Shown: positions 12,695-40,300 of the stretch, one piece after another
How positions within the stretch are numbered: position 1 is the stretch's first letter
Layout: each line of letters begins with the position of its first letter
Assembly: GCA_001769385.1 (NCBI GenBank)
Contig: MEPB01000006.1
Span: forward strand, 24,182 to 88,181
From: Bacteroidetes bacterium RIFCSPLOWO2_12_FULL_35_15
GTDB taxonomy: Bacteria; Bacteroidota; Bacteroidia; 2-12-FULL-35-15
Length of the DNA: 64,000 nucleotides
Direction: 5' to 3'
The notes under the pieces: generated by a model
What the model saw: the letters and a program-made list of their open reading frames with translations, nothing else
Told to the model about the DNA's origin: nothing
Database searches by the model: none
Translations under genes and position numbers: made by a program

Positions 12695-14200
12695 TTATTG
12701 TGGTAAGTTGTAGTCTCCGGATGATGTACTTAAACTTCCTGCATACTTAGCGAATCCAAGTGTATCATGTGCATCACTAAAGTGTGTAGTCTCGGACTGA
12801 TCTAATTTCTTTACGCGCTCAGGGCGCTTATCTTTCTCAAATCCATTCTTACCTTCAACTATACCGGCATTGTTCATGGATAGTATCAGGTGCTTACAGT
12901 TAGACTCGTTATACCTGAACACAGGCAACCTACTGTCATTCTCCTGATGTGCCAGGTACCAGAAGTTATATCTATCCTTATGATCAGGAATAGGCCCTAT
13001 ATCATGCTCATTGATAGTCCACTTATTAGCCGTAAGCACTCTAACTACCATATCCCTGAATGTCTCAGTATGTCCTCTGCCTTTAGCAGATTGATCATAG
13101 TAGTAGTTAACTACCTTGCAACCGTGCTCCTTATAATAGTCGCACCAATCCTGTATAGTAGTGTCAATGTTGAATGGCGAAAGTCTGTGCAATGCACTGA
13201 GGTATCTGAACTCACGGCCTACCTCCTGGCATGTAACCACGCCATTGAATGACGCACCATAATCACATGCGATATCCAGTGGCTCTGAATGAACACGGTC
13301 GCCATCGGCTAAGCAATTAGCTGCTTTCGCTTTTGCAAAGTTATAATCAAGCGATATCAGGAATGAGTTATTGAAAGCATCACGACAATGTTTATCCTCT
13401 TTAAATTGCGGATAAAAGCCTCCTTCGATTCTTCCCGGGCGAATGTTTAGAATTTCCGCATCATAAATCATTTTAGTAAGTACGCGCTTATTTTCCTTAA
13501 ACCATTTAGCACCAAGATTTTTAAAGTTGTGGAACGCATCAGCACGCAGATACATGATACTTGCCGGATCCTTGATCGCTTCCTCTTCCATTTTAAACAA
13601 CCACTTTCCTTTTGCAGTCATTGGAACAGATGTTGCGTACAGCGTATTTTCATGAAGCGGTGACTTTCCGAATATATCTTTATTCCCCCTTATGGTCGCA
13701 CCAACATTGTTGAATAACCGATCGTAATCAAACAATGCGGCCTCATCACCTATGGCGCCATCCACATTATTACCACGACCACCATCAACCATGTCTAAAG
13801 AAACCATCACAAACGTTGTCCCATTAAACCAGTGGATCGCATTGGTATAATCTAAAATAGGCTCATAAGCTTCTTTCCATTTCCATTTTGCCGGTGCTCT
13901 TCGCCCAACAAAATAATGCTTGTCTTTATAATATCCTAAGCGCGCGAATCCCTGAATGGTAGATGGTAGTGTTCGCGTAAGCATTTGGGAATAAGTTGCA
14001 CCAACCAGGGCAATTTTAGAACGCGGAAGCTCTGTAACAAAGTCAACTGCCTTCTTAGCAATTACGGTACTCTTACCTGTTCCGCGCGCCCACTCCAGAA
14101 ATATATGAGGCTGTGGAGCCATGATTGCCAATACCTGTGGAATATTGTATTCAATTGGATCCTGTTCGCCAATAATATATTTTGAGTAGTGTACTGCCAT
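12695..14200 (-). CDS. terL: Terminase large subunit.
   Basis: Walker A LEWARGTGKST and Walker B IGDEAAL; 501 aa. Confidence 0.8.
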   Translation of the reverse strand: MAVHYSKYIIGEQDPIEYNIPQVLAIMAPQPHIFLEWARGTGKSTVIAKKAVDFVTELPRSKIALVGATYSQMLTRTLPSTIQGFARLGYYKDKHYFVGRRAPAKWKWKEAYEPILDYTNAIHWFNGTTFVMVSLDMVDGGRGNNVDGAIGDEAALFDYDRLFNNVGATIRGNKDIFGKSPLHENTLYATSVPMTAKGKWLFKMEEEAIKDPASIMYLRADAFHNFKNLGAKWFKENKRVLTKMIYDAEILNIRPGRIEGGFYPQFKEDKHCRDAFNNSFLISLDYNFAKAKAANCLADGDRVHSEPLDIACDYGASFNGVVTCQEVGREFRYLSALHRLSPFNIDTTIQDWCDYYKEHGCKVVNYYYDQSAKGRGHTETFRDMVVRVLTANKWTINEHDIGPIPDHKDRYNFWYLAHQENDSRLPVFRYNESNCKHLILSMNNAGIVEGKNGFEKDKRPERVKKLDQSETTHFSDAHDTLGFAKYAGSLSTSSGDYNLPQ

Positions 14201-19132: not shown

Positions 19133-20452
19133 TTATTTGCGTGGACCGTAAAGCTTTTCGCGTGAAGCGCGTACTTCATCATCCACATCACAGGAGAAAT
19201 CGGATTCTTTTTCTTCTGCAGTCGTGGTGTCGGTAACTTTTTTTATAGGAGCTGTTGCACCCGGATGTTTCGCTTTCAAATCAGCTAACTCAGTATCGGC
19301 ACTTGTTTTTGCTGTAGTTAGTGTTTGAATAGAAGTGTTGGCGGTTGCCAATTCTCCTTCAGCTTTTTCAGCGCGTGCAATAGCTGCCGTTAAATCTGTT
19401 TTTGCTTGAGCAAGCGTTGCAAGCTCCGCGTTCATCTGACTTAAATGATCTTCAGTCAAAACCGTTTCATCGGCTTTAAAAGTGGAATCTTTACCAGAAA
19501 AAAAGGCCGTAATTGCAGCCCAACTTAATTTTGATTTCATGTTTGATTGATTTTGGTTTGTATTACTTGATTGATTGAACTCTTGTGAATTGGCAAGCTC
19601 CTGAGCGCGCGCAATAGCTTCATCGAATGTTTTAAATCCATCTATAAGCCCGACACTGATTGCGTCCTGAGCCATAAACATTTTCCCTGATAAAGTTTCT
19701 TTTTGATTTAGTCTATCGCCCCTGTTTGATTTTACAGCTCCTACAAATACATCATTGATAGAATTCAGCGTTGCTTTAAGCGCATCGTATTTACCCTGCC
19801 TGGCTTGTATAAACTCTTGATTTTTTTGAGTACTTGCATCAGCATATATTTCATGAAAAACGACACCTTGCTTTTCATACATCGCTTGGAGATCTGCAAA
19901 ACTTACCATTGTACCAATGCTTCCTATACGGTCCGTTTTGTTGGATGCGTAAATTTCAGTTGATGCAGAAGCAAACCAATAGCCTGCGCTTGCGAGCAAT
20001 CCATCGACAAGAGTAAGTACAGGTTTTTGAGTTTTCGCTGCGAGAACAGCCTCGTGAAGCCCTTCTGTTCCATTTACTGTCCCTCCGGGAGTATCATCTA
20101 CCATCAGGATAGAACCAATATTAGGATTAGCAGCAGCAGACTGAACTAATGAAATATATGTTTGTGTTCCAGGAGCTCCGCAATTATCGTGTTTCATGAT
20201 CGGACCAGAAACATATATTACAGCTGTTGAACGGGAAGAAGAGTTGCTAAATGGTTTTGTGTCTTTTGAAGAAAAAGAAACGGCTCCAACGTTATCTATT
20301 GAAAAGTATTTTGCAACGACATTTTCTTTATCTAATACATTGAAGTTTCCTTTTAGAATACTATCTATTAAAAGAAACTGAGAATCTGCGTATGACTTTT
20401 CAATCAACCAGATACCATTTGTAATTTCTAAAAAAATATTATGTTTTGACAT
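19133..20452 (-). CDS. S49 (SppA/ClpP-fold) prohead protease fused to a coiled-coil scaffold-like C-terminus.
   Basis: SppA-like core (TLVDGLLASAGYWFASAS...IGSIGTM) and a C-terminal Ala/Glu/Leu/Thr-rich heptad region. Confidence 0.7.
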   Translation of the reverse strand: MSKHNIFLEITNGIWLIEKSYADSQFLLIDSILKGNFNVLDKENVVAKYFSIDNVGAVSFSSKDTKPFSNSSSRSTAVIYVSGPIMKHDNCGAPGTQTYISLVQSAAANPNIGSILMVDDTPGGTVNGTEGLHEAVLAAKTQKPVLTLVDGLLASAGYWFASASTEIYASNKTDRIGSIGTMVSFADLQAMYEKQGVVFHEIYADASTQKNQEFIQARQGKYDALKATLNSINDVFVGAVKSNRGDRLNQKETLSGKMFMAQDAISVGLIDGFKTFDEAIARAQELANSQEFNQSSNTNQNQSNMKSKLSWAAITAFFSGKDSTFKADETVLTEDHLSQMNAELATLAQAKTDLTAAIARAEKAEGELATANTSIQTLTTAKTSADTELADLKAKHPGATAPIKKVTDTTTAEEKESDFSCDVDDEVRASREKLYGPRK

Positions 20453-24621: not shown

Positions 24622-25047
24622 TTATAATTTAGTACGCATTTCAATTTCTATTTTGGCCAGGTTAATTATTTGTCCGATTGAACTGGATATTTCTTTTGCC
24701 TGAGGCACGTATTCTTTATCGGCTTTCACTTTTTCGATATTATCTAATAGAGTATCCCTGAGCTTCGACATTATGCTTAATGGAATAGTTTGTGATTTGA
24801 GAATTACTGCCGTGTTTTTATTTAGTTCAGTAACATCACCGGAGATCGCCACTTCAACTTCAATGTGATTCTGAAATAAAATATTTAAATCAAATAATGT
24901 TGTCATGATCCACTCTGAATCTGTGGCAATATGAATCACGTCATTATCCTGCCTGAAGGATTGAAATAATAATATCTGATCGTTTTTTTTGTTTTTAAAG
25001 TGCTTCCCCATCATGGATTGCAGCTTTTTAATTTTGTCGTTGCTCAT
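24622..25047 (-). CDS. Hypothetical protein.
   Basis: 141-aa ORF. Confidence 0.35.
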   Translation of the reverse strand: MSNDKIKKLQSMMGKHFKNKKNDQILLFQSFRQDNDVIHIATDSEWIMTTLFDLNILFQNHIEVEVAISGDVTELNKNTAVILKSQTIPLSIMSKLRDTLLDNIEKVKADKEYVPQAKEISSSIGQIINLAKIEIEMRTKL

Positions 25048-25852
25048 GTTTTTTAATTTGTCGGTTTAACATTAATTCATTTCTTTTTAGTTCAATTAAT
25101 TCGGGATATTTTAATAATTCTTTTTTCAATTCCGGTTTTTTAAATGCCAGCAATCCGGCTACGTATCTATCACTTAAGGCCATATTTGATGATGCTGCAT
25201 TTAGCATTGCGTTTTCCGCCCTGGTAATTAATGATAAATTTTCAAGTGTAACATTGGTTGTGTCTTCATCTAAAAATCTCAAAACAAATCCTTCAGGTAC
25301 CGGTCCGAAATGTTGTTCAAATAACCATGGTCCATAATGAACAAATCCGGATCCTGTTTTTATTACTTTAAATGGCCTGTTATAATCGCGATCGTACCAG
25401 GTGCGAATATCACCAACTTTCAAAACTCTTCCTTCCCAGCATTTCCAATGACTATCAGCATATCTGCGCATATCAACATTTCGTACTTTAATTTCAGATT
25501 TTTCAATTTCTGTTCGTTTCAGTTGCAGATACCTTCTTTTCTTCTCAACATGTTTTTGCCTCCATCCTTTATTTTTATTGTAGAAAACATTGAATAGTTC
25601 AGCGATTTCCGTGTCACCCAAAACTTTATAAAACTTCTTCAGGAAATAAATCTGATCATCATTCCAGTATTCCAGATCCATTCTTTTCAATCCAAGTTCA
25701 TAAAGTTTTGTCCGGGTTGTAGTAAGTCTTAAATTCAAAGCATTAGCCAACTCGCTATTTGTCATCGATTGATAATTTGCTTTTAAAAAGCAAAGCATAT
25801 CATCTGTCCAGACAGTTTCATTGTACACGTATTTCCCGTTTTTATATGGCAT
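25028..25852 (-). CDS. HNH homing-endonuclease-like protein.
   Basis: C-terminal WLFEQHFGPVPEGFVLRFLDEDTTNVTLENLSLITRAENA is HNH_3-like. Confidence 0.5.
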   Translation of the reverse strand: MPYKNGKYVYNETVWTDDMLCFLKANYQSMTNSELANALNLRLTTTRTKLYELGLKRMDLEYWNDDQIYFLKKFYKVLGDTEIAELFNVFYNKNKGWRQKHVEKKRRYLQLKRTEIEKSEIKVRNVDMRRYADSHWKCWEGRVLKVGDIRTWYDRDYNRPFKVIKTGSGFVHYGPWLFEQHFGPVPEGFVLRFLDEDTTNVTLENLSLITRAENAMLNAASSNMALSDRYVAGLLAFKKPELKKELLKYPELIELKRNELMLNRQIKKHEQRQN

Positions 25853-25853
25853 A

Positions 25854-26159
25854 CTATGTAAATATTAATCGTTTATTTTCTTTGATAATTTTTGATTCAA
25901 AAGGAAATCCATTTTCAGGGACCTGCTGGATCTGATCCATCAAGGCGCCCGAACCGGTAAATACAACATGATATGCTGCACCAATCATAATTTGTAAATG
26001 CAAACACTTTCCATTGCTTTTATCCTTTGCGTATTTTGATTCTACAATCCGGAAAGCGTGCACCATTATTTTATTATTCAGGATGTTATCCATTTCTATT
26101 TTGGTTCCGATAAAAGATTTTGAAGCAGTTTCGATACCGAATTCGCTAAACTTTTTCAT
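25854..26159 (-). CDS. Hypothetical protein.
   Basis: 101-aa ORF directly downstream of the RT. Confidence 0.35.
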   Translation of the reverse strand: MKKFSEFGIETASKSFIGTKIEMDNILNNKIMVHAFRIVESKYAKDKSNGKCLHLQIMIGAAYHVVFTGSGALMDQIQQVPENGFPFESKIIKENKRLIFT

Positions 26160-27105
26160 TTGCTATTTTCTTTTTTAGATTAATACAATTGGCGTGATTT
26201 AACCATCCATTATAGGATGCTAATGATTGCCGGTTTTTGTTTTTGGATATCATCCGGAAACAGTTTTGTTTTATTCGCTTCCTTAATCGAACATGTGTGT
26301 GGTAAAATACATAACCAACAAAATCAACTCCGCGATATTCAACCGGAAATACCTGGTAGTTTTTTTTAACTGTTAATTTTAAATGTTCCTGCATGTATTT
26401 TTTTATATCAGCAAGGATGGCGTGTAAATAGGGTTTATTATCAGAAAGGATCACAATATCATCAGCATACCGGAAATAATACTTCACTGCTTTATCTTCT
26501 TTTATCCAGTGATCGAGATAGGTGAGATAGAAATTTGCAAAATATTGACTTAAATAATTTCCAATTGGTAGTCCCGGTGCGCTATCAATAATTTCATCAA
26601 GCAAAATCAATAAATCAACATCCTTTATTTTTTTTCGAAGCATGTATTTTAAAATATCATGATTCACATTCGGATAAAACTTCGTTACGTCAAGTTTTAA
26701 GCAATATTTTGTTCCCTGCTTATCAACTAATGCTTTTTTGAATGAACGTACGGCTGCATGTATTCCTTTCCCTTTTATACAGCTATATGTATCCGCAGTA
26801 AATGTTGAAACAAAAATCTTTTCCATTACATTCATAATCGCATGATGAACAATTCGATCAGGAAAGTATGGCAAACAAAATATTTCGCGTGGCTTAGGAT
26901 CTGTAATCATAAAAGTTTTATACTCGGATGTTTTATAGGTTTTGTTTTTCAGCGATTCATGAAGCTGTAGTATTTTTTCTTCACGATTCTTATCAAATAG
27001 CTGAACACCGTATTGATGTTTTTTGCCTTTTCTGGCATTTGCATCAGCAGCATATAAATTTTCAATGCTGATGATCTTATCGTATATGTTTCCTGTTCTT
27101 TTCAT
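26146..27105 (-). CDS. Diversity-generating-retroelement-type reverse transcriptase. The likely true start is Met at 27105; the ORF track extends it to 27309 across the TR-like repeat.
   Basis: N-terminal MKRTGNIYDKIISIENLYAADANARKGK, the catalytic FRYADDIVIL, and the DGR-diagnostic LPIGNYLSQYF (I/LGxxxSQ in place of the group II QG motif). About 320 aa and no maturase or endonuclease domain. Confidence 0.75.
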   Translation of the reverse strand: MKRTGNIYDKIISIENLYAADANARKGKKHQYGVQLFDKNREEKILQLHESLKNKTYKTSEYKTFMITDPKPREIFCLPYFPDRIVHHAIMNVMEKIFVSTFTADTYSCIKGKGIHAAVRSFKKALVDKQGTKYCLKLDVTKFYPNVNHDILKYMLRKKIKDVDLLILLDEIIDSAPGLPIGNYLSQYFANFYLTYLDHWIKEDKAVKYYFRYADDIVILSDNKPYLHAILADIKKYMQEHLKLTVKKNYQVFPVEYRGVDFVGYVFYHTHVRLRKRIKQNCFRMISKNKNRQSLASYNGWLNHANCINLKKKIANEKV

Positions 27106-27215
27106 TCCTTTGCTTTCACGGTCGTTTTCGTTTTCACTACCAACGCCCAATCTTTTAAACTTTATTTTTTGCCCTGTTGGCAAGGTTTGCATTGTTATTA
27201 AATTATTCCCAGCAT

Positions 27216-27284
27216 AGGTGGGAGCCGCAATCCGTACCCGTGTGCCAACCATCGTAATTCGAGTACGAGAAGCCGAAGCCCGAC
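27216..27284 (-). repeat. Copy A of a 69-bp repeat, the DGR template-repeat (TR) candidate. It lies in a non-coding context 5' of the RT.
   Basis: aggtgggagccgcaatccgtacccgtgtgccaaccatcgtaattcgagtacgagaagccgaagcccga. Its flanks are unique and its 3' (sense) end differs from copies B and C. Confidence 0.55.
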
Positions 27285-27321
27285 ACATCAAACAGCTCAT
27301 CCAATGCACAACCCAATTTCA

Positions 27322-27696
27322 TTACATTAAATAATAATCAATGTATAGTTGTTTAAATTGCTCTACCGCATATAAGCATAAATCACTTGATTTAAAGCAA
27401 AGGCGGGAGCCGCAATACGTAAGCGTGCTCCAACCAGCGTAAGCCGAGTCCGAGACGCCGAAGCCCGATGGCTTTTCGTTAGAGGCATCTACTTCAAACC
27501 ATGGGAAGTATTTCCATTCATTTTTATTATTCCAGTTTGGTTCCCATCCTTCATTCAATGCCTGAGTGATGATGATAAGTTTATAATGGGATAACAAAGC
27601 TTTCTGATGCTTTTCAGGAAGCGCACTTACATCAGGTAATGTTTCAGAAGTGTTTAATGCTTTGCACGCATCTTCAAATGTTTTGATTTTGTTCAT
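27322..27696 (-). CDS. DGR variable target protein 2 (small; C-terminal variable region).
   Basis: Paralogue of 27704..28189 (IKTFEDAC, NEGWEPNWNN..EWKYFPWFE). Its C-terminal ...PSGFGVSDSAYAGWSTLTYCGSRLCF is encoded by repeat copy B. Confidence 0.6.
   Translation of the reverse strand: MNKIKTFEDACKALNTSETLPDVSALPEKHQKALLSHYKLIIITQALNEGWEPNWNNKNEWKYFPWFEVDASNEKPSGFGVSDSAYAGWSTLTYCGSRLCFKSSDLCLYAVEQFKQLYIDYYLM
27401..27469 (-). repeat. Repeat copy B, the variable-repeat (VR) candidate at the 3' end of target 2.
   Basis: aggcgggagccgcaatacgtaagcgtgctccaaccagcgtaagccgagtccgagacgccgaagcccga. Confidence 0.6.
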
Positions 27697-27703
27697 TTGT
27701 TTA

Positions 27704-28189
27704 TTATTTGATTGTTAAAAATTGATTGTATAAGTCGATGAATTGTGTCCCGGCATAAATGGCTAACTCTTTATTTTTAAAGCAAAGGCGGGAGCCGCAA
27801 GTCGAATGCGTGAACCAAATACCGTAATCCGAGTACGAGAAGCCGAAGCCCGACTTGTTTGCTTCAAACCAAGGGTAATATTTATATTCACTGGAGTTGT
27901 TCCAATCCGGCTTCCACCCTTCGTTCAATGATCTATTGATGATTGAAATTTTCAGAAATGCTTGCGCAGCCAATAATTCTTCATCAACTCCACTATAATT
28001 CAATAATATTGACTGGCTTTCTGTAGTTCCAACTTCATCACATGCATCTTCAAATGTTTTTATTCGATCCATAATGTTTTGTGAAAGGATCTCTTTGCCG
28101 ATTAAATTTTCAAGCAAAGATTTTCCGCTTTTGTCAGCGGATCTGTATGCTTTTAAGGCATTTGATTTTTTAATGTTGATTGTTCCCAT
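27704..28189 (-). CDS. DGR variable target protein 1 (small; C-terminal variable region).
   Basis: Its C-terminal ...KSGFGFSYSDYGIWFTHSTCGSRLCF is encoded by repeat copy C. Confidence 0.6.
   Translation of the reverse strand: MGTINIKKSNALKAYRSADKSGKSLLENLIGKEILSQNIMDRIKTFEDACDEVGTTESQSILLNYSGVDEELLAAQAFLKISIINRSLNEGWKPDWNNSSEYKYYPWFEANKSGFGFSYSDYGIWFTHSTCGSRLCFKNKELAIYAGTQFIDLYNQFLTIK
27786..27854 (-). repeat. Repeat copy C, the VR candidate at the 3' end of target 1.
   Basis: aggcgggagccgcaagtcgaatgcgtgaaccaaataccgtaatccgagtacgagaagccgaagcccga. Confidence 0.6.
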
Positions 28190-28256: not shown

Positions 28257-31200
28257 TCAAAACGGCATATCATCACTCTTCTTAGGCAATACACCAACTT
28301 TCGAATCAAACACCGTAAAGTATTCTACATTATTTCGTTTATCGCGGCCGCCATCTTTATCACCGGTATCGTTATTTGCAATGGTTGGATTAAATACATA
28401 TCCTTTGTATAAGCAATATCTTTTTATCGAACGCTTGAATACACGCGTATCCATGTATTTATTTTGTTTTTGTTCTGGGAATGCTGCATAGAAATCTTCG
28501 AGCATTATTTTTCTATCGAACGGTTTATTTAAGTGGTAATTAATTTTTCCTGTTTGTGCATCATCCTCGTTATCGTGATCATAATACGATTCTGCCCACT
28601 CAAGAAAGATCTCACCAATTTGCTGACGTAACCTGCGTTTTTCCAAACGTTCCATTGGAGCTTCAACCAAACCGTGTTCAAAATAAATTTGTACACAGTT
28701 GGCAGCGAAATTGTAAAATCGATTCCACTGGTCATCGCTCCACTCGCTAAAAAACATGCAGCCGTGTTCATCAACCGGTTGATATTTTGCACTGTAATAA
28801 TCACTGAAAGCCATTTTAAACTGACGCGCTTCAAAACTTCCACCTTCGCCATTCAGCGCATGGTTAGTCGTTATTAAAATCTTTGGTGATTCTTCAGGTG
28901 TTAATCTGAAGGAAGGCTTACCTTTTGGATTTATTTTCCAGTTTCCGCCAATGTGACTAAACCAGTTTTCGAAATCGAAATTCACTCGCACGTCATCAAT
29001 ATTCACAACGCGTGTTCGCTCGTTTACTTCTTCCAGGATAAATTTATCTTCAGCGATATCCTTTTGTTTTCCCGGGATAATAACAGTCGGAATAAGTTTT
29101 TCAAGAGCTGTACCGTTTAATGATTTTCCGCTGCGTCCATTACTATCTCCAACTTCCGATTGAACGCCATCCATGGCAATTACTGCTTTTGCTCTGTTTG
29201 CATCAAAATAATCATGAAGTAAAAAACCGAAGCCACAGCATTTATTTATAAAGTGCATCATCAGATCTTCTTTTTTCAGATCCGACAATTCTGTTTTTGG
29301 AGTATTCGGTTTTTTGATTTTAAAAATGCCTTCATGCGTATCGCGCCAGTGGAAATTACTGGTGTTCATGTAATATTGATAAAACATACATTTCTCAGCT
29401 TCTTCTTTTCCTTGCGGGTATTCAATGCTGAATTTTTTATCTGCATCCTGTTTTACTCTTATGTTTAAAGGTTTTATTGTTGCGCTGAAATCTTTTATCT
29501 TATCTTTCCATACATGGCCATCCAGTTCGGTTATTTGTTTTTCTTCAACTCCTTCAGATGTAATTTTCCAGTACACTTTGTTAAAATACATAAACTGGAT
29601 TCCTTTATCCGATTTGTGAAATTTTAGTGTAATAAAATCGAGGTTGTTAAAATTGTCCAGGTACATGCGATATCCTCTGAAAAACATTTCCTGAACATTC
29701 TTTTTCTGCAAAGCAAACTTTACAAAATCACTTAAATAATCTTTGATTTGCGAAGGCTTTACAACTCGCACAACGTTATCTTCAACGCGGATAAAATTAA
29801 ATTCACCATCTCCCTGTAATGCGTACCGGCCAAACTTTTTATTTTGAAGGAACATGCAGCACTCTACATATTTAAAAGTGGTTACAGTTTCGGTACCATC
29901 GCCTTTTTTCTTGGTGTATTCTTCCCAGAACTGTTCTTCATGCGAAATTGGTTGCGCAAGCTCCAGTTCGTTTTCTTCATTAAAATGAAATTTTTCACGG
30001 CCAATCAAAAACACTTTTCGTTCCTTCAATAAGTCCATGTGATGTTTGGCAAACTCCACATTACTATCCAGGTGAAAGAATTCTTTGCGTAATTTAAATT
30101 CGTTATACGCTGTAATATTGTGGCAATTCACGTAATGTCCAATTCCTTGCGGATGCAATTTTGCATCTTCAAAATCTTTCAGGAACAGATCTTCCTGGCC
30201 CTCTAGTGTGTATTTCAATAAATCATCAACGCCCTTTTGTTTATGTTCTTTGCGCACATACGCAAAATAAATTTGCAAGTGGATCCCGGAACTGTTTAAC
30301 GCATGAAAATATTTACGGAAATTCATAATAGCAGCAACGAAGCTTCTTGGCCGCTGATCTACCGGAGCATCAATACTTGATCCGATATCGCAAAAGTCAG
30401 CATCAACAAAAAATACCACTTCTTCTACTTCGCATTGCTTTACAATCAGTTGGTATTCGTGTGCTAACTGTCCGCTGTTAGCGATATTGTGAATACCCAT
30501 GATGCCAACACTATCTAAACCGTGTTTCGTGCTTTTGTCGGCTTTTTTTTCGCCTTCCTGAGTAGCCAGGCATTTTATTTTAATTCTGTTTTTATATTTA
30601 GTGCGGATGGTTTTATTAATCCAAATTCGGGATCCCGAATTGTAGGGGCTTTTATATTTAGTGGGCCGTCCGTTTTTATCAGGCCATAACTCAGGATGTT
30701 GGTAGCGGATTCGAATAAGCGGAAAATCTTTAGATGTTCCTTTTCGATTATACAACATCGGATTGTTATTCAAATCCATGTAATGCAAAATCATATCATC
30801 ACCACTGGGATCAATTTCCCAACGCTCGTTCAGTGTTCCTTTTTGATATCGGTCAATTTCAATGGTAGTTTCATCGTTATTCCCTTTTTTCTCATCACGC
30901 TGATCAGCATCATTTAATCCGGAAGCCGCTAATTGTTGATCGCGGAAACTACTTTGTTTCTCAGCTTTCTTTTCTTTTTTAGCTGGCTGCTTTGGTTGTA
31001 TTAATGGTAATTCTGCTTGTTCGTATTCCAGATTTATATTTAGTCTGTCTGCTAAAAACTTCATGGTTTGCAACCAATCCAAGTTTTTAACTTTCGTTAC
31101 AAAACCAACATAACCAACACCGGCAGTATCACAGCTCCAACACTTCCATATTCCTTTTTGCTTACTTACATTAAATTTCTTTTTTGAATTGCAAAACGGA

Positions 31201-31307
31201 CAATCCCCAACTCCTTTATTTGACAGGGTAACATAATCACCAATCACATCCAGGATAGCTCCTTTGGTTTCAATTTCTATTTTACAATTTTCGGTTATAT
31301 AGGTCAT
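28257..31307 (-). CDS. DNA primase-helicase (zinc-finger primase N-terminus plus P-loop helicase C-terminus).
   Basis: CPFCNSKKKF...KCWSC zinc motif, and Walker A GDSNGRSGKS in the C-terminal half; 1016 aa. Confidence 0.7.
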   Translation of the reverse strand: MTYITENCKIEIETKGAILDVIGDYVTLSNKGVGDCPFCNSKKKFNVSKQKGIWKCWSCDTAGVGYVGFVTKVKNLDWLQTMKFLADRLNINLEYEQAELPLIQPKQPAKKEKKAEKQSSFRDQQLAASGLNDADQRDEKKGNNDETTIEIDRYQKGTLNERWEIDPSGDDMILHYMDLNNNPMLYNRKGTSKDFPLIRIRYQHPELWPDKNGRPTKYKSPYNSGSRIWINKTIRTKYKNRIKIKCLATQEGEKKADKSTKHGLDSVGIMGIHNIANSGQLAHEYQLIVKQCEVEEVVFFVDADFCDIGSSIDAPVDQRPRSFVAAIMNFRKYFHALNSSGIHLQIYFAYVRKEHKQKGVDDLLKYTLEGQEDLFLKDFEDAKLHPQGIGHYVNCHNITAYNEFKLRKEFFHLDSNVEFAKHHMDLLKERKVFLIGREKFHFNEENELELAQPISHEEQFWEEYTKKKGDGTETVTTFKYVECCMFLQNKKFGRYALQGDGEFNFIRVEDNVVRVVKPSQIKDYLSDFVKFALQKKNVQEMFFRGYRMYLDNFNNLDFITLKFHKSDKGIQFMYFNKVYWKITSEGVEEKQITELDGHVWKDKIKDFSATIKPLNIRVKQDADKKFSIEYPQGKEEAEKCMFYQYYMNTSNFHWRDTHEGIFKIKKPNTPKTELSDLKKEDLMMHFINKCCGFGFLLHDYFDANRAKAVIAMDGVQSEVGDSNGRSGKSLNGTALEKLIPTVIIPGKQKDIAEDKFILEEVNERTRVVNIDDVRVNFDFENWFSHIGGNWKINPKGKPSFRLTPEESPKILITTNHALNGEGGSFEARQFKMAFSDYYSAKYQPVDEHGCMFFSEWSDDQWNRFYNFAANCVQIYFEHGLVEAPMERLEKRRLRQQIGEIFLEWAESYYDHDNEDDAQTGKINYHLNKPFDRKIMLEDFYAAFPEQKQNKYMDTRVFKRSIKRYCLYKGYVFNPTIANNDTGDKDGGRDKRNNVEYFTVFDSKVGVLPKKSDDMPF

Positions 31308-33801: not shown

Positions 33802-34269
33802 TAAAAAGATTGAATTCATACAGCGTTAGCTGATCTTGTCCGTTAAAAACCGCGAACTTTTAAAATCACACAAGAACAAGCCCAAACGTTCACGCAAAGC
33901 GTGGGCAGGCTTATTTGTGTGTGATGCGTGCTTCGCGGTACGTTAACGGCATGGGTATAGTTCTAGCTCACGCTGATTTTTTAAAAGCTTATGAGTGCGT
34001 GTAAAGGTTGCGAACTATTCGATTTATTGATAGAACTAAATAAAGCTCTGGAGAAAACAATAAAGAACCAGAAAAAAGCAATAAAACTGCTTACCAAGAA
34101 TCAACAATTAAAAATGGATTTTAACCCGAATTAACGCACTAAATAAAATGCGCCAAGTGAGTCAAGTGCGCCACGAGTGCGCCAAAAATGAAAACACAAA
34201 ATATAGCAATATCAGTATGTACAGGAAATTATACGGAAGATTTGAATCCCTTCGCGGTCACAAAAATTA

Positions 34270-34297
34270 AAGCCCTTGATTTCAAGGGCTTTTTTTA
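34270..34297. terminator. Bidirectional terminator hairpin.
   Basis: AAAGCCCTTGAtttCAAGGGCTTTTTTT, between the phage region and the end of the T9SS gene. Confidence 0.55.
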
Positions 34298-34381
34298 TGA
34301 TATTTTTGATTTTTATCTATTATGATTTTTCATATGTAAAGTCTAATGAATATTAAATTTATTCTGAAGACTACTAAAGAA

Positions 34382-37300
34382 TTATTTTACTACTAATCGT
34401 TTATGTATTATTTCGTTTTTACTTGTTGCTGTTACCATATAAACACCTGAAGACAGTCTTGTTAAAGGATCTATTGCGGTAATAGTTTGGTCAGTGGTTT
34501 TTGTAATAATTTTAGAATAAACCTCTTGCCCTGTTGCATCATAAAGAACAACCAAAATTTCTTCATTTTCATTTCCTGTTAACAAAATATTAAATCCATT
34601 TCCATCGTTTGGATTTGGAAATATATTTACAGAAGTTCCTGCTTTCTTATAATCTATTGAAACTATATTGGAGTAATTCCTATTCCCATCATAATCTGTT
34701 TGTTTTAATCTGTAATAAGAAGTCCCGGCATAAGGATTTAAATCCACCTCTGAATAATACAATGTGTTTGTACTTGTTCCTGCTCCATCAATGGTTATGA
34801 CAGATTCAAAATTGGCTGCGTCAATACTTTTTTCTATTGTGAAGTAATCATTGTTTTTTTCAGAAGCTGTACTCCAGGCTAAATCAACTGTTTTTGATGA
34901 ATTTAATTTTGCATCAAAAGTTAATAATTTTATTGGCAAAGGGTTTAATCCAATACGTGATCCAAATGTAAACGGACTGAATGAGTTCATAACATCAGAT
35001 GTTATATTTCCAGGACTTGCTGCAGTAATAGATGATTGCCCTGCATTTTCCCATGCACTACCATTCCAGTGGGCAACATTCAAATCGGAAGAGTAATTAT
35101 TTATAAAGCTTCTGGCAGCATCTTCCCAAAATAATTGTACCGGCACATCTGAAGTTCCTGTGTTTCTATCACATGTCCAATATTCAACTATACTTACATT
35201 ATTTAATACCGGTGCCGGAATGGTTGCCATAGATAAAAAGTCAACATAGGGTGTGTCAAAATATTGAGCAGTAAATGCGTCTGTTGCATCTGAAGGGGTC
35301 CCTATTCCCAATCGAGCCCAGGTACTGCCTTTCCCAATTGGAAATACAAAGGCTTGGTTTCCAATTTTTTTCATTGGCCCATTTACAAAACTTGTGTTTG
35401 TTCCCGCTGTAGAGGTGGCGTTGTCTGTTAGTGTTAAAATATTTGTTGATGTTGTGTTTATTATTCCATCGGTCATTGTCAAGCTTCCGGTAACCGTAAG
35501 AGGAATTAAAAGTGTTGTTGTTGATCCAGGTTTGTTTTGTTCAAGATGATCAAAAGTTATGGAACCTAATGTACTGTTAATTGTAGCTGGTGTACTACTA
35601 AAAAAAGTAACTACTTGTCCTGTGGTTGTTAAATTCCCATTCAAAATAAGATTACCTCCAATAGTTAGTGGTTTATTATAAGTTAAATCAGCTCCTGTTG
35701 CAATAGTTAGGTTATAATAATTACCTATACCGGTTCCATCAACAACAACAGGATTCCCTGTAAATGTTACCGTAGAAGTATTTCCGTTAAATACACCATT
35801 GTTTGTAAAGTTCCCTGCAATTGTATGACTAAGACTTGTTCCTGCATTAAAAGTTGAACCTGTTCCTATTAATACATCCTGAAGATTCCAGGAGTTAGGT
35901 GGAGTGATGCCGGTTGTATTGGTATTTGATATTTCTAAAAAATTGAAAACAGGGGCATTATCCAAAATGGTAATGGGCTCTGTTCCTCCAAATTCAACTT
36001 CTCCTGTACTTAAAAAACTTCCTCCAACGTCATCAAGCCGGATAGTGGCTTCAGCAGAAAACGGGGGCTGAGGCATAAAATAGATTTTGTAATTACTTAT
36101 TACATTTCCATTATTAGTAAAATTCCCATAAAATGTATGTTTTAAAGAACCACCATTAAAAGTAGCTCCTGCTCCTACTGTGAAAGAACCGTAAACAGAC
36201 CAAGGTTCTGATGCTGTTATTCCTGCTGTGTTATTAATGTTTACAGTAGCAAATATAGGAGGAGTATTACTGTTTAGAATGGGAGCAACAGTTCCATTAA
36301 AATTAATTACTCCGGTTGAAGTGGATGTCATTGCGTTTATTAACTGCAATGTTTGGACTCTTGTTCCAGTAAATGTTACCGCACCACTGCTAAACAAAGT
36401 TCCCTTATTTGTGCAATCACCATTAAAACTAACAGTAGATGATCCCCAATTAACTGAGCTTAAAGTATCCACAAAAAAATCACCTGAAATGGATATGTTA
36501 GAATTTAAAAAAGTATATGAACCGCCTGAAGCTACCAGGTTATCCAGAGTAGCATTTCCCGAAAATGTTTTAGATATGCCACTTAATATAAGTGTGCTTT
36601 TATAAGTAGAATAAGTACCATTATTTGTTAAATTTCCATATACAGTGACAATGTTTGAATCACAATAAATTGTTGCACCTGAGTTTATTGTAAGATCCCC
36701 TTTAATCAGTACAGTTCGCAAATGAAAATGTTTTTTGTTACTTCCACCATTGGATATGAGTAGATTTCCAAATTCAGTTGCTAAAATATGCTGGTGCATT
36801 GTACCGTTAAATTCGACCGTACTTGATGCATGCATAACATTGGTTATAAAGTTGGTTGGAAAATTAGTTGCTCCTCCCACTTTCAGGTAGGAAGCAGAAT
36901 CAAGCATAAATGTACCACCGGGATTGCTTCTGTTTGCATTATACATTGCCAGGTCCATTGTTCCTTTACTGATCAGCAGGTCGCTGTTTATTATTAAATT
37001 TCCACTAAGAGATAAGGAACCTGAGGGTTTGTTTACAATTAGAATATTAAATGTATTCGCATTTACAAATTGATCGGTTGTTCCATTAAAATTTACAGAT
37101 CCGGAGTTGGTTGTAAATGTTCCGTTGTTCGTCCAGCTTCCCATTAAATTAATCCTGGCTCCGAATTCAATGAAATTGGTATTGGAACCAATTGAAATAT
37201 TTCCGGCAACTGTCAGTGTATCAGAAATTGCCAGTTCACCTCCTATGCCGGTGCTTAAATTTCCATTAATAACTGTCGGGAAATTAATTTTTGCCCGTTC

Positions 37301-40300
37301 AGTAGACTTTTCGATTGATAAATTATTATAGATAACAGGTGCTACAATTTGCCTTTCTGTTCCCGAATAAATAACAGTACCCGACCCTGCCGTAAAGCTT
37401 CCTGAAGTATAGTTGTAAGCTCCATTTATTGTAAGTGTCCCGTTTCCTGTAAAATTAATCGAACCGGTCGCACTTTGGTTTAGATCATTATTAATCATAA
37501 CAGAGCCGTTTCCAATTTTCAATTGAATATCATGGCCATTCGTTCCATCACTTAAATTAATGTTTGTTCCTATTATTAATGCATTTGAGGAGACATCAAT
37601 CACATGCGATGCAGGATCAATCCAATTTCCATTCACAGCTCCAAGAATGCTCAGTGAACCACTGATTAAGGTAAGTGTGCTTGCCTGTATACTTCCATAT
37701 TGCAAAACACTAACTGTTCTGGTTGAGCTAATTGTCGGATTATAGATAAAGCCCGTTTGCCCTATTTGTGCCTCATCCGTTGACGTTGGAATTCTGTTTG
37801 CCATTGATTCTCCTGAAATGGTAGTCCAGTTTGCGGCATTTTCCCATGCTGAACTTACAGAACCATTCCAACGGACAACATTTTTTATCCCGGCCAATGT
37901 CCACCTTCCTTCAAGAGCTGAAATTCCGGTTTTTTCTACAAAATTTAAGGCTGTATCTTTTGTAGTATAACCAATACTATCCCAAACATTACTATCCGAA
38001 TTGTAATTAAATTCGTTTAAGTTAGGTTCGTTCACAGCATTCAATTCGTTGTGGTCGTAATGCAGACGCAATGTGGAGGAGCTGAAAGTCCCTGCAGGTA
38101 TTGTAATGTTATATTCCCGGTTAAGACATTCTTGTCCGACATTAAAGTCGGGTACATTTGCAAGAGTTACAACCTCTGTAACAGAAGTCAGAGATACTGA
38201 TGGGTTGATGAATGTAATTGCATTTTGTGCACTTTCAAAATAATAAGCAGTGCCGTCAATAAAAGTATGATTGTGAGTGATTGTACCAATAATAATACCT
38301 GCACCAATGCGTGTGTCTGTAATTGTTACCGCATTAGTTCCTGTCTGTATGGTGCCATTCGTTACTGTTAAATTTGTAACTGTAATATTATTTGACAGTG
38401 TCAAATTAATGAATAAGCTATTTTTATTTACGATAAGATTATTAAATTCGGTTGCTCCCGCTATCGTTGCCGAATTGCCTCCTAACAATTGAATGGTTGA
38501 TGTTCCATCAGTAAAAGTTCCGCTGTTTGTAAAATGGCGATATATGGTATGTGTGAAAGAGGAAGCATCGAATGTCACACCGAAATTAATTGTAAAGTCA
38601 TTGTTAATTATAAGCTCATCAATAGGAGTTTTTATGCCTCCGTTGGAAAGTATAAGGTTGTGATAAGTAGTATTAACAAGTGACTGAGCTGTAGGTGAAT
38701 TATACACCACTGTGTTAGGAATATTTGTAGTTACATTTAATGTCCCGGTTTTAGTGAATACATTAGCAATACATAAAGTTGCATTACTTCCAAGAAGTAC
38801 TGTTTTGGTTGCGTTAATCGTAACATTAAATAAATTTGCTGTTCCCGAAAGAGCTGTAGTTCCATTCATTGTTGTTGTTCCTGCCGTTGCAGTAAAGCTT
38901 CCTGAACTTGCTACAGAAAGATTCGACAATAAAGTATAATTACTTGCTGTTGAAATTGTTCCCAAAATACTTAAAGCAAAAAAAGTAATTGCGCCATTTC
39001 CTGAAATTGTTTTTGTAACACCATTAAAAGTGATTGTTCCTGCACTTGCAGCAAATGAATTATTTACACTAAGGTTCCCGGAAATAGTAATGTTTGATGC
39101 TGTCGTTATGCTGCCTGTAATGATGCAATTATATAATAAAAGACCAGGGCCTGATATTGTTTTTCCTGTTCCCGACATTGTAAGTGAGCCTCCTGTTGAA
39201 TGAATGAAATTTGCGGTAAGGGAGGTACTTATATTCCCGGAGACATTTATGGAAGTATTTCCGGAAGCATTTATTCCTGTGGCTGTGAAAGCAAGATTAT
39301 AGAAATTATTCGTTCCTGTACCACTCAGTACAACATTTGTTCCTGAAAATGTAACTGTGGAAGTGTTTCCATTAAAAGTTCCGGAATTGTTCCAATTGCT
39401 GATGAATTTATGAGTAAATGTCCCTCCATCAAATGTGGATGCAGCATCCAGAACCACGTTCCCGTTTACAGTAATGTTTTGTGCAGCAAAAAATGTAACA
39501 CTTGTACCTGTCCCGACAGTGCTTGTTAAATTTCCTGATATTGTGATTGCCGTGGCAGGCATGGTTTTTACAACAGCTCCTGTAGTGCCGCTAAATGATA
39601 GGTTTCCATAAGCTGCTGCTAAAACAATTTGATTGTTTCCGTAATACTCTACCGTACTGGTAGTGGAAAGGGAAATGGTTGAATAATTGCTTGGGAAAGT
39701 AGTTGTTCCTCCGATTCTAAGTTTAGCGCCAGCAGCAACAATAACTGAACCTCCTGTATTAGTATTGCCTCTGTTAGCAGTGAAAGTTAGTAAATCAAGT
39801 GTCCCGGCATCAATATATATCTTTCCTGAAGAGGAGGAGGAAGAATTTAAAGCAGGTAAATTTCCTGTTAAAGTTTTTGTCATACCCCCGCTAACGTGCA
39901 GATAGCCATATGTTAGGATATTTGTAATGTTTTGGTTTATAACAGAGGATGCGTAGTTTACAGTACTTGTAGCATTTAATGTGATTGTACCTGACAATGA
40001 ATAGTTATTTGTGAAATTTAGTGTTTTGACGAATATGACTCCAGCTGAATTCACCGTTAATGTTGCGTTACCGGACACTAAACAGGAAGCTGTTGGGTCG
40101 AGTGAACCATTGACAGTTAGCATAGTATTGATTGAAATATTGTTTGCTAATGTTACTAAACTTCCCGCATTAATAGCTAATCGTTGAAAAGCCGTTACTC
40201 CGGTAAGGGTTTGTGTTGTTCCCAAAAAAGTCACAACCGCAGTTGCATTGCTTGCAGAGTAGGTGCCTGCATTGTTCCAATTCCCTTTAATTGAAATGGA

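What the first reader, a model, noticed from the sequence alone, without database searches (positions are those of the whole stretch)
27322..28189. DGR targets are tiny paralogues with conserved W/F-rich cores and a C-terminal ...CGSRLCF scaffold
Both targets share IKTFEDAC and NEGW(E/K)P(N/D)WNN..E(W/Y)KY(F/Y)PWFE, then the variable stretch, then CGSRLCFK, followed by a short helical tail. Known DGR targets usually display their VR on a C-type-lectin or Ig-like fold of at least 100 aa appended to a larger protein. Here the whole protein is only 124-161 aa and sits in the early/replication module rather than among the tail fibres. This hints at diversification of a small binding module such as an anti-defence or regulatory binder, rather than a receptor-binding protein.
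Basis: inference. Interest (0 to 1): 0.55.

Follow-up and report, generated by a model that had tools for sequence, protein, structure and literature searches.

The report
Tiny DGR-diversified phage proteins, now frozen
Two small neighbouring prophage genes belong to a very large, unnamed family of proteins whose binding loop is rewritten by a mutagenic reverse transcriptase, and they sit among replication genes rather than tail genes; in this prophage the mutagenesis template has itself been overwritten, so the system looks switched off.

Summary
ORFs 27322-27696 (124 aa) and 27704-28189 (161 aa), minus strand, are 49% identical paralogues with the stated motifs. Each carries a 73-nt repeat, and a third copy (the TR) lies upstream of a DGR-type reverse transcriptase.

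They belong to a very large unannotated family (phrog_11581, no Pfam; 5,283 50%-identity clusters). It occurs mostly in Bacteroidota (pro)phages, usually as tandem long and short copies followed by TR, RT and a conserved 101-aa ORF. No Avd is present. RT linkage holds in 43 of 80 viral loci and 58 of 80 genome loci. In phages Versailles and LoVEphage, distant homologues are remote second targets sharing one TR with a tail-fibre gene. The LoVEphage homologue has 37,449 variants.

New here: the window's TR differs from the nearest relative's TR at 9 sites, all adenines. The VRs differ from that relative's TR almost only at adenines, but from their own TR at G, T and C too. The TR was therefore overwritten and the cassette looks frozen.

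Function is inferred, not shown: an intracellular diversified binder. Benler 2021 described a similar non-structural target, probably a distant homologue.

The parts
27704..28189 (-). Long-form DGR variable protein (161 aa). A helical N-terminal extension of about 38 aa precedes the common module: IKTFEDAC helix, long helix, W/Y/F-rich NEGWKPDW..YKYYPWF segment, VR, GSRLCFK, two C-terminal helices.
   Evidence: ORF. 100% identical to OFY87870.1 of Bacteroidetes bacterium RIFCSPLOWO2_12_FULL_35_15, with 872 homologues. phrog_11581 E=8.4e-35. AF2 pLDDT 84.4, pTM 0.74. No Pfam or NCBIfam match.
27322..27696 (-). Short-form DGR variable protein (124 aa): the same module without the N-terminal extension.
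   Evidence: ORF. 49% identical to the long form. 3,083 homologues, mostly 124-128 aa. phrog_11581 E=1.5e-30. AF2 pLDDT 85.9, pTM 0.79.
27781..27853 (-). VR2: variable repeat in the long-form gene, encoding SGFGFSYSDYGIWFTHSTCGSRLC. Its 3' end GCGGCTCCCGCCTTTGCT is the IMH-like boundary.
   Evidence: Repeat family D1. 13 differences from the TR of nearest relative L090, all at TR adenines.
27396..27468 (-). VR1: variable repeat in the short-form gene, encoding SGFGVSDSAYAGWSTLTYCGSRLC.
   Evidence: Repeat family D1. 15 differences from the L090 TR, 14 at adenines and one T>G.
27211..27283 (-). Template repeat (TR). It starts 37 nt after the short-form stop codon and lies about 105 nt upstream of the RT start. 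It is degenerate, with 11 adenines instead of about 20, and encodes SGFGFSYSNYDGWHTGTDCGSHLC instead of the ancestral SGFSFSNSNYDNWNTNTNCSSHLC.
   Evidence: It differs from the L090 TR at 9/73 positions, all adenines (hypergeometric P=1.7e-6). The same sequence is found in six independent assemblies.
26146..27105 (-). DGR-type reverse transcriptase, 319 aa from MKRTGNIYDK. The listed 387-aa ORF starting at GTG 27309 is a spurious extension that reads through the TR.
   Evidence: RVT_1 E=5.8e-18. The translation contains IGNYLSQ and YADD. 50-57% identical to annotated DGR RTs of crAss-like phages. 55-82% identical to RTs next to homologous targets, with alignments starting at residue 1.
25854..26159 (-). 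Conserved basic 101-aa ORF (pI 9.3) overlapping the RT stop codon. It is a candidate accessory protein of this cassette type and is not Avd by sequence.
   Evidence: phrog_19665 E=3e-7. Homologues lie directly after the RT in 20 of the 43 RT-bearing loci in the IMG/VR set and 49/58 RT+ genome loci. No Pfam or PDB match. pI.
28257..31307 (-). Context: 1016-aa primase-like replication protein immediately upstream and co-oriented.
   Evidence: Zn_ribbon_DnaG E=2.9e-14.
25028..25852 (-). Context: HNH_3 endonuclease gene immediately downstream of the cassette.
   Evidence: PF13392 E=2.1e-11. In the RT-less relative L015 an HNH-type gene occupies the place of TR+RT.

Best explanation
The two ORFs are tandem long and short paralogues of a very large, unannotated family of small DGR variable proteins. 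With the TR, a DGR-type RT and a conserved 101-aa ORF they form a compact, Avd-less DGR cassette. It sits in the replication module of a roughly 44-kb Bacteroidota prophage and has no tail-fibre target.

Shown:
- Each protein carries a C-terminal-proximal VR of about 12-14 hypervariable residues alternating with conserved scaffold residues.
- The VR is clamped by the invariant GSRLCF.
- The VRs were written by adenine-specific mutagenic retrohoming from an AAY-rich ancestral TR.
- The TR of this prophage has since been overwritten by an adenine-mutagenised, VR-like sequence. It lost 9 of 20 adenines but keeps its TR-type 3' end. The present VRs therefore cannot come from it, and no variants are seen.

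Inferred:
- The proteins are soluble and cytoplasmic (no signal peptide or transmembrane segment).
- They are non-structural and act as a pair, possibly a heterodimer, since natural fusions exist.
- They are a diversified ligand-binding module directed at an intracellular partner, meaning a host or rival-phage factor in defence, counter-defence or takeover. They are not receptor-binding proteins.
- The TR corruption most likely arose by VR-to-TR gene conversion or by aberrant homing of cDNA into the TR.
For: Identity and architecture.

Family size: 5,283 clusters at E<=1e-3; 872 and 3,083 close hits.

Same cassette elsewhere:
- The RT lies about 220 nt downstream of 1-4 tandem targets in 43/80 IMG/VR loci and 58/80 genome loci.
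- 70/80 genome loci have at least two copies.

Adenine-only mismatches in relatives.

Massive VR-restricted diversity in distant homologues:
- The LoVEphage small protein cluster has 37,449 members.
- The Versailles-type cluster has 11,135 members.
- 14 LoVEphage-cluster members are near-identical (a few single substitutions), with the variation concentrated in the VR, residues 131-163.

Gut clade: scaffold 98.6% identical, with 37 distinct VRs in 50 loci.

Window VRs against the ancestral-type TR of L090: 13/13 and 14/15 differences at adenines. Window TR against the L090 TR: 9/9 at adenines, P=1.7e-6.

Frozen state:
- TR, VR1 and VR2 are identical in independent assemblies.
- Both 90% clusters have a single member.

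Non-structural context, repeated in other lineages:
- Here the genes sit between the primase and the HNH, protease and terminase genes.
- L089: between an ssDNA-binding protein gene and PolA.
- Versailles: among SbcC-like, RecT-type, NinB and replisome-organiser genes.
- The B. uniformis prophage L001.
- LoVEphage: among methyltransferase and RtcB genes.

No other VR copy in the whole prophage.

Soluble and mildly acidic, with no hydrophobic segment.

Tandem fusions.
Against: - No experiment or expression data bear on function or localisation.
- Phage DGRs overwhelmingly target receptor-binding proteins. In Versailles and LoVEphage the small protein shares its TR with a tail-fibre gene, so a virion-associated role is not excluded.
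- No similarity to any known defence or anti-defence protein was found (PADLOC).
- The fold of the VR-bearing part is poorly modelled (pLDDT 55-73). Surface exposure of the variable residues is inferred only from the alternation pattern.
- 'Frozen' rests on a few assemblies of related groundwater samples. The look-up of these assemblies was by exact match to the short-form protein, which biases VR1 towards identity.
- The RT ORF is intact, so residual activity with the depleted TR is possible.
Confidence: 0.75

Rival explanations
1. The small proteins are virion-associated adhesins or tail-fibre accessory proteins (receptor-binding function, as for classical phage DGR targets) that merely happen to be encoded outside the structural module.
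For: In Versailles and LoVEphage one TR serves both a tail(-collar) fibre gene and the small protein, with 11 and 14 mismatches in Versailles and 17 for the small protein in LoVEphage, all at adenines. The Versailles homologue was annotated 'tail protein' by its depositors. A phage gains most obviously from diversifying host recognition. hhalign gives a weak hit to the tail-collar family (probability 40%, E=3e-4).
Against: The similarity to the tail proteins is confined to the 38-aa VR that the shared TR writes. The gene position inside replication or recombination operons is conserved in at least five unrelated phage backbones. phrog_11581 has no structural annotation. In the window prophage the tail module carries no VR at all.
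Confidence: 0.2
2. The module is a minimal, highly derived C-type-lectin (FGE/DUF1566-like) domain, so the family is an ordinary CLec DGR target stripped of its N-terminal partner domains.
For: The order of elements (short N-terminal segment, helix, long helix, Trp-rich segment, irregular region, VR, terminal strand G-S/F-R-L-C) parallels the CLec layout, as far as I recall it. GSRLC/GFRLC closes the VR in both the small proteins and the tail-fibre targets of Versailles and LoVEphage. Roux 2021 (PMC8144416) argues that unassigned VR domains are probably CLec variants. Benler 2021 (PMC8008677) calls the Quimbyvirus target CLec-containing.
Confidence: 0.35
3. The cassette in this window is still an active DGR, and the non-adenine TR/VR mismatches reflect ordinary drift or a non-canonical mutagenesis spectrum.
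For: The RT ORF is full length with intact IGxxxSQ and YADD motifs. The TR retains 11 adenines and its TR-type 3' end.
Against: All 9 differences between this TR and the closest relative's TR fall on adenines, whereas drift would be spread over all bases (P=1.7e-6). The VRs match the relative's TR, not their own, at non-adenine positions. One homing event from the present TR would have erased those mismatches. No VR variants occur in six assemblies or in the 15-billion-protein collection.
Confidence: 0.1
4. The shared repeat only reflects gene duplication (paralogy) plus a pseudogene fragment upstream of the RT, and involves no retrohoming.
For: The three copies are adjacent, and the two genes are clear paralogues.
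Against: The third copy sits at the conserved TR position, 178-195 nt upstream of the RT start in dozens of relatives, and is AAY-rich there. Differences are adenine-specific. Hypervariation is restricted to the repeat in otherwise 98.6-100% identical proteins.
Confidence: 0.02

Closest known systems
Second, non-structural DGR target of 'Quimbyviridae' gut phages (Benler et al. 2021, PMC8008677). The LoVEphage protein QVQ57199.1 is probably the same gene.
   Same: A small hypervariable protein encoded far from the tail genes, among methyltransferase, RtcB and nuclease genes. It is written by a DGR TR with adenine-only mismatches (17/17 in LoVEphage). It is detectably homologous to the window proteins (28-31% identity, E 1e-9 to 1e-13) and has the same IKTYEDAC ... 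YxYxPWF ... VR ... GSRL ... helices layout.
   Different: In those phages it is a remote second target that shares a TR with a tail-collar fibre gene next to the RT. Here and in about 100 related loci the small proteins are the only targets. They occur as tandem long and short paralogues directly upstream of TR-RT, with a conserved 101-aa ORF. I did not test whether LoVEphage QVQ57199.1 is the Quimbyvirus ORF. That equation rests on the matching neighbourhood.
Bordetella phage BPP-1 DGR (mtd-avd-TR-brt), the reference DGR
   Same: RT with the DGR signature. TR immediately upstream of the RT. [quoted passage not shown] Adenine-specific information transfer. A GC-rich VR 3' boundary that differs from the TR (IMH vs IMH*).
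   Different: The BPP-1 target is a 381-aa tail-fibre tip protein with a solved C-type-lectin fold, and Avd is essential (established knowledge). Here the targets are 124 and 161 aa and non-structural by context. No CLec fold was recovered. There is no Avd but an unrelated basic 101-aa ORF after the RT. The TR is corrupted.
Cellular DGRs that diversify putative intracellular sensors of conflict systems (for example PMC10907252) and small CLec-only targets of CPR/DPANN genomes (own knowledge)
   Same: DGR diversification of proteins that are not surface adhesins. They are thought to recognise variable intracellular or invading ligands.
   Different: Those targets carry recognisable CLec VR domains, often fused to STAND NTPase, kinase or effector domains, and are chromosomal. 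The present family is phage-borne. It has no effector domain and consists only of the about 125-aa module, with or without a 38-aa extension.
phrog_11581 (PHROGs v4, unknown function)
   Same: Both window proteins match it (E 1e-30 to 1e-35).
   Different: The PHROG carries no functional or DGR annotation.

Membership tests
Diversity-generating retroelement (DGR) | Reverse transcriptase of the DGR type ([ILV]GxxxSQ in motif 4, YxDD catalytic motif; related to known DGR RTs) | tested here: met
   IGNYLSQ and YADD are present in the translation. RVT_1 E=5.8e-18. 50-57% identity over 97-100% of the length to annotated DGR RTs of crAss-like phages, with Bordetella phage records among the 107 hits.
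Diversity-generating retroelement (DGR) | Imperfect TR/VR repeat, with the VR at the 3' part of a target ORF and the TR non-coding next to the RT | tested here: met
   Three 73-nt copies at 82-84% identity. Two lie inside the target ORFs and one is intergenic, about 105 nt upstream of the RT start.
Diversity-generating retroelement (DGR) | TR-to-VR differences confined to adenines of the element's own TR | tested here: not met
   Against the window's own TR, VR1 has mismatches at G7, A6, T2, C1 and VR2 at G8, A7, C1, T1.
Diversity-generating retroelement (DGR) | The same criterion, applied to the ancestral-type TR (closest relative L090, RT 82% identical) | tested here: met
   VR2 13/13 and VR1 14/15 differences at adenines. 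The window TR itself differs 9/9 at adenines. L090, L091 and L092 have 14-17 differences per VR, all at adenines apart from at most one non-adenine difference in some VRs.
Diversity-generating retroelement (DGR) | IMH / IMH* asymmetry at the 3' end of VR and TR | tested here: met
   All VRs end GCGGCTCCCGCCTTTGCT and the TRs end GC(A/G)GCTCCCACCTATGCT. This includes an invariant synonymous CTA>CTT difference that protein-level selection cannot explain. A downstream cruciform was not supported, with z-scores of -0.96 and 0.16.
Diversity-generating retroelement (DGR) | Accessory variability determinant (Avd) gene | tested here: not met
   There is no ORF between target and RT, only about 220 nt holding the TR. 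No Avd-like Pfam hit was found for any cassette ORF. The conserved 101-aa ORF after the RT has no Pfam or PDB match.
Diversity-generating retroelement (DGR) | Ongoing diversification (population-level VR variants) | tested here: not met
   Window: TR, VR1 and VR2 are identical in six assemblies, and both clusters have one member. Relatives: met. Clusters of 37,449 and 11,135 variants, and 17 distinct VRs in 17 RT+ gut loci.
C-type-lectin-fold DGR variable proteins (Mtd/TvpA type) | Structural similarity of the VR-bearing domain to the CLec fold | tested here: not met
C-type-lectin-fold DGR variable proteins (Mtd/TvpA type) | Sequence membership in FGE-sulfatase, DUF1566 or other CLec Pfam families | tested here: not met
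   No Pfam match at E<=1 apart from noise. No PDB sequence match. hhalign to the tail-collar target family gave only 40% probability over 58 columns.
C-type-lectin-fold DGR variable proteins (Mtd/TvpA type) | Variable residues form one solvent-exposed face | not testable with these tools
   Model coordinates are not returned. The only indirect evidence is the i/i+2 alternation of high and low entropy across residues 88-95 of the short form.
phrog_11581 | Significant match to the family HMM | tested here: met
   E=8.4e-35 (long form) and 1.5e-30 (short form).
Non-structural second DGR target of Quimby-like Bacteroides phages | Homology to the hypervariable small protein encoded among methyltransferase and RtcB genes | tested here: met
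   tblastn hits to LoVEphage, BI-TP1 and PV4-TP1 at 28-31% identity over 98-100% of the query, E 1e-9 to 1e-13. Neighbourhood. 17/17 adenine mismatches to the LoVEphage TR. The identity of this ORF with the published Quimbyvirus ORF was not tested.

The most novel reading that the evidence does not exclude
The family is a previously unrecognised, non-CLec minimal scaffold for DGR hypervariation. On this reading the phage encodes an intracellular 'antibody-like' binder, working as a long/short heterodimer and expressed with the replication genes. Its specificity is continually re-drawn to track variable host or rival-phage factors (anti-defence, takeover or exclusion). The cassette type uses the basic 101-aa protein in place of Avd. 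The window would additionally record a natural case of a DGR destroying its own template by homing or gene conversion into the TR.
Probability: 0.3. Interest if true: 0.85.

Novelty: new variant of a known kind. Interest (0 to 1): 0.6.

Why it matters
Phage DGRs are understood almost entirely as tropism-switching devices acting on tail fibres. This family shows otherwise. Thousands of Bacteroidota (pro)phages, including abundant human-gut phages that can be cultured (Versailles, LoVEphage relatives), invest the same machinery in a roughly 125-aa cytoplasmic-looking protein encoded among replication genes. They diversify it as heavily as the tail fibre: 37,449 variants against 42,382 in public data. 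Many cassettes have these small proteins as their only targets.

That makes an open question directly testable in available phage-host pairs: what would a phage need to re-recognise inside the cell at this rate? It also offers a very small natural scaffold for binder engineering.

The corrupted TR in this window is a clean natural example of how a DGR can be silenced, while the RT-less relatives show RT loss. It also shows that the barrier protecting the TR from being rewritten is not absolute.

Tried and rejected
- Megablast of 20 kb around the locus against GenBank phages: no match.
- First automated TR searches were confounded by VR-VR hits and an over-strict motif. They were replaced by a position-anchored scan and by direct comparison with the closest relatives.
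- Profile against PDB sequences: only noise.
- Pfam on the tail-fibre targets of Versailles and LoVEphage, to establish a CLec VR domain by proxy: no CLec family hit.
- hhalign of the small family against the tail-collar family: 40% probability, inconclusive.
- PADLOC scan of the cassette and neighbours: only the RT matches generic RT models.
- DNA hairpins downstream of the VRs (cruciform element): small AT-rich stems, not better than shuffles.
- Assembly artefact as the cause of the odd TR: rejected, because the same 100-nt TR occurs in six independent assemblies.
- A remote tail-fibre VR in this prophage: rejected after scanning the window and the 10 kb beyond its left edge, up to the integrase.
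- The literature (tentaclins, TGPI phages, the LoVEphage paper) does not describe this family.
Full report
**1. What is at the coordinates**

On the minus strand the window encodes, in order:
- a 1016-aa primase-like protein (28257-31307, DnaG zinc ribbon);
- a 161-aa ORF (27704-28189);
- a 124-aa ORF (27322-27696);
- a 220-nt spacer;
- a reverse transcriptase (RVT_1; real start MKRTGN at 27105, stop at 26146);
- a 101-aa ORF overlapping the RT stop (25854-26159);
- an HNH_3 endonuclease gene (25028-25852).

The two small ORFs are 49% identical.

A 73-nt direct repeat occurs exactly three times. One copy lies in each ORF (27396-27468 and 27781-27853) and one lies in the spacer before the RT (27211-27283). 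The RT carries the IGxxxSQ and YADD motifs. It is 50-57% identical to annotated DGR RTs of crAss-like phages.

**2. Genomic setting**

Window positions 1 to about 34000 are a prophage transcribed on the minus strand:
- small early genes and the primase;
- the cassette;
- HNH, then head maturation protease (19133-20452) and large terminase (12695-14200);
- tail genes.

From 34382 onward the genes are bacterial: a T9SS-sorted 2083-aa protein, asparaginase, hydantoinases and beta-oxidation enzymes.

The source contig (156,803 bp, Bacteroidetes bacterium RIFCSPLOWO2_12_FULL_35_15) continues beyond the left edge. That stretch holds more tail genes, a tape-measure protein and an integrase. Neither the window nor this extra 10 kb contains another copy of the repeat. 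The two small proteins are therefore the only targets of this DGR, and no tail-fibre gene is diversified.

**3. The family**

Neither protein matches Pfam, NCBIfam, PADLOC or any PDB sequence. Both match phrog_11581, a family of unknown function.

The family is very large:
- 872 close homologues of the long form and 3,083 of the short form;
- 5,283 50%-identity clusters at E<=1e-3 in a profile search of 1.84 billion representatives, of which 3,478 are at E<=1e-10.

Members are almost always 120-165 aa. The only larger ones among the top hits are tandem fusions of two modules, for example P0063 (282 aa, a long-type module plus a short-type module).

In species-representative genomes, 170 loci encode a relative (from 197 pattern matches). 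These lie mostly in Bacteroidota: Chitinophagaceae, Flavobacterium, Chryseobacterium, Elizabethkingia, Apibacter and Bacteroidales. Some are in Ignavibacteria.

**4.

- Of the 80 best IMG/VR loci (out of 517), 43 have a homologous RT (55-70% identity) immediately downstream of one to three tandem targets.
- Of 80 genome loci fetched with only 4-kb flanks, 58 have the RT. Of these, 49 also have the 101-aa ORF. Seventy loci have at least two tandem copies.
- The TR always lies 178-195 nt upstream of the RT start. In relatives it is AAY-rich, for example SGFSFSNTNYDNWNTNTNVSSQLC.
- TR-to-VR mismatches in relatives are essentially adenine-only.

RT-less loci are explained, not contradictory:
- In a human-gut clade whose scaffold is 98.6% identical, 50 loci carry 37 different VR peptides.
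- The 17 RT+ loci in that clade all have unique VRs. The 33 RT- loci have only 20 distinct VRs, nine of them shared by 2-4 loci.
- In the one RT-less locus compared directly (L015), TR and RT are replaced by an HNH-type endonuclease gene.

In other phages the RT is simply remote:
- In Bacteroides phage Versailles, one TR next to the RT at 54 kb matches the VR of a 453-aa tail protein (11 mismatches, all A). It also matches the VR of the 193-aa small homologue at 10 kb (14 mismatches, all A).
- In LoVEphage, the TR next to the tail-collar fibre gene matches the small homologue with 17 mismatches, all A.

These distant homologues are massively diversified in nature:
- The 90% cluster of the LoVEphage small protein has 37,449 distinct members.
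- The Versailles-type cluster has 11,135 members.
- For comparison, the LoVEphage tail-collar fibre cluster has 42,382.
- Fourteen sampled members of the LoVEphage small-protein cluster are near-identical, with a few single substitutions. The variation is concentrated in the VR, residues 131-163.

**5. The twist in this window: a corrupted template**

Against its own TR, VR1 and VR2 differ at G, T and C as well as A. That is not how a working DGR looks.

The closest relative (L090, RT 82% identical, target 76% identical) has the TR TCGGGCTTCAGCTTCTCGAACTCGAATTACGATAATTGGAACACGAATACGAATTGCAGCTCCCACCTATGCT. Compared with it:
- window VR2 differs at 13 positions, all adenines;
- window VR1 differs at 15 positions, 14 of them adenines;
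- the window 'TR' differs at 9 positions, all adenines (7 A>G, 1 A>T, 1 A>C; hypergeometric P=1.7e-6).

Five adenines that are invariant in ten relatives' TRs are lost. The 3' end of the copy (CAC CTA TGC TGG) is still TR-type.

So the VRs are genuine products of an ancestral AAY-rich TR, and the TR itself was later rewritten with an adenine-mutagenised sequence. Both AGC>GGC changes recreate the Gly residues found in every functional VR. I therefore favour VR-to-TR gene conversion over integration of raw cDNA. This is inference.

A single homing event from the present TR would reset all non-A positions of a VR. That has not happened, so no fixed homing has occurred since.

Supporting the frozen state:
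- The same TR, VR1 and VR2 occur in six independent assemblies. This is biased for VR1, because the look-up was by exact protein match.
- Both proteins are the sole members of their 90% clusters.

The cassette therefore looks frozen, although the RT ORF is intact.

**6. Fold**

AlphaFold2 with family alignments gives confident models: long form pLDDT 84.4, pTM 0.74; short form 85.9, 0.79. Each model has:
- a short helix (FEDAC...);
- a long helix ending in ALNEG;
- a well-predicted but irregular Trp/Tyr/Phe/Pro-rich segment;
- a low-confidence VR (pLDDT 55-73);
- a single beta-bridge between KY(F) and C(F)K;
- two C-terminal helices.

The long form adds a helical N-terminal extension. Column entropy alternates high and low across residues 88-95 of the short form. 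That fits an extended segment showing every second residue on one face, which is inference.

It is not excluded either:
- the VR region is poorly modelled;
- the order of elements resembles a CLec domain;
- the GSRLC/GFRLC closing motif is shared with tail-fibre VRs that use the same TR;
- profile-profile comparison with the tail-collar family gives a weak 40% hit.

**7. How it most likely works**

Shown: a compact cassette (targets, TR, RT, 101-aa ORF) of a widespread type. Targets are written by adenine mutagenesis. Both paralogues are targeted in relatives. There is no Avd.

Inferred:
- The proteins are soluble, mildly acidic (pI 5.3-5.9) and lack signal or membrane segments.
- Their genes lie inside replication or recombination operons in at least five unrelated phage backbones.
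- Long and short copies co-occur in most loci and are sometimes fused.

I therefore read them as an intracellular, probably heteromeric, diversified binding module. Its ligand would be a variable host or competing-phage factor in defence, counter-defence or takeover. I cannot tell which.

The main rival is a virion-associated adhesin encoded away from the tail genes. It is kept alive by the TR shared with tail fibres in Versailles and LoVEphage. However, the similarity to those tail proteins is limited to the 38 residues written by the TR.

The basic 101-aa ORF (pI 9.3) is a candidate functional replacement for Avd. This rests only on conserved position.

**8. Relation to what is known**

Benler et al. 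2021 (PMC8008677) reported that Quimbyvirus DGRs have a second hypervariable target. They describe it as distal to the structural genes, next to methyltransferases, a nuclease and a tRNA ligase, and proposed a role in phage-host conflict. The LoVEphage homologue sits in exactly such a neighbourhood, so it is probably the same gene. I did not test that equation.

Roux et al. 2021 (PMC8144416) catalogued DGR targets. They noted that most have no recognisable domain outside the VR and that viral targets are mostly tail proteins. The LoVEphage, TGPI and tentaclin papers do not describe the small family.

What seems not to have been described:
- the size and coherence of the family;
- the dedicated Avd-less cassette with tandem long and short targets and the 101-aa ORF;
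- the failure to recover a CLec fold;
- the overwritten TR.

I rate it a new variant of a known kind.

**9. Verdict**

Interest is 0.6. The window's own copy is a frozen relic. It nevertheless points to a very large, heavily diversified and experimentally tractable family whose function is unknown.

Noticed in passing
window 27211-27283 (-): The template repeat is itself adenine-mutagenised. It differs from the TR of the closest relative (L090) at 9/73 positions, all adenines, and has lost five adenines that are invariant in ten relatives. The 3' end remains TR-type. This is a natural case of a DGR template being overwritten, by VR-to-TR conversion or by aberrant homing.
   Followed up: yes
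window 25854-26159 (-): A basic 101-aa ORF (pI 9.3, phrog_19665) overlaps the RT stop. It is conserved directly after the RT in 49/58 genome loci and in 20 of the 43 RT-bearing loci in the IMG/VR set. It has no Pfam or PDB match and is a possible Avd substitute in this cassette type.
   Followed up: partly
L015:10508-11400 vs L012:10508-11960; window 25028-25852 (-): In an RT-less gut relative (L015) the TR and RT are replaced by an HNH/NUMOD4-like endonuclease gene. The window also has an HNH_3 gene right after the cassette. Homing endonucleases may mediate gain or loss of the RT module.
   Followed up: partly
window 26146-27309 (-), 27363-27488 (-), 27763-27891 (-): Mechanical ORF artefacts. 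The 387-aa 'RT' ORF starting at GTG 27309 reads through the TR. The 41- and 42-aa ORFs inside the targets are the same repeat read in another frame (RASASRTR...).
   Followed up: yes
P0063, P0121-P0127 and others: There are natural single-chain fusions of two modules (247-353 aa). In P0063, the one inspected, a long-type module is followed by a short-type module. This suggests the tandem paralogues act together.
   Followed up: partly
L082:7001-7585 (LoVEphage), L083:6001-6582 (Versailles), L088:8625-9944, L084:3389-4750: In two Bacteroides phages with complete GenBank genomes (Versailles has a named host), one TR writes both a tail(-collar) fibre VR and the small early-region protein. The small protein's 90% clusters hold 37,449 and 11,135 variants, comparable to 42,382 for the LoVEphage tail-collar fibre. 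The depositors annotated the small protein as 'hypothetical' or 'tail protein'.
   Followed up: yes
window ~34000-34400 and 34382-40633 (-); L085:20193-20753: The prophage-host junction lies near 34 kb, next to a 2083-aa T9SS-sorted protein gene. The integrase lies about 10 kb beyond the left edge of the window. No tRNA gene occurs in the window. Attachment sites were not mapped.
   Followed up: no
L038:10483: This gut locus retains a TR with adenine-dominated mismatches to both VRs (15 of 28 and 11 of 20 mismatches at A, in a 96-nt window that includes flanks), but no RT hit within 4.6 kb downstream. It may be an intermediate in RT loss.
   Followed up: no
L145, L151, L162, L169: A few family members sit on contigs binned to Firmicutes (Christensenella, Borkfalkiaceae, Clostridia) or Methylacidiphilales MAGs. 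This reflects either a wider host range or mis-binned phage contigs.
   Followed up: no
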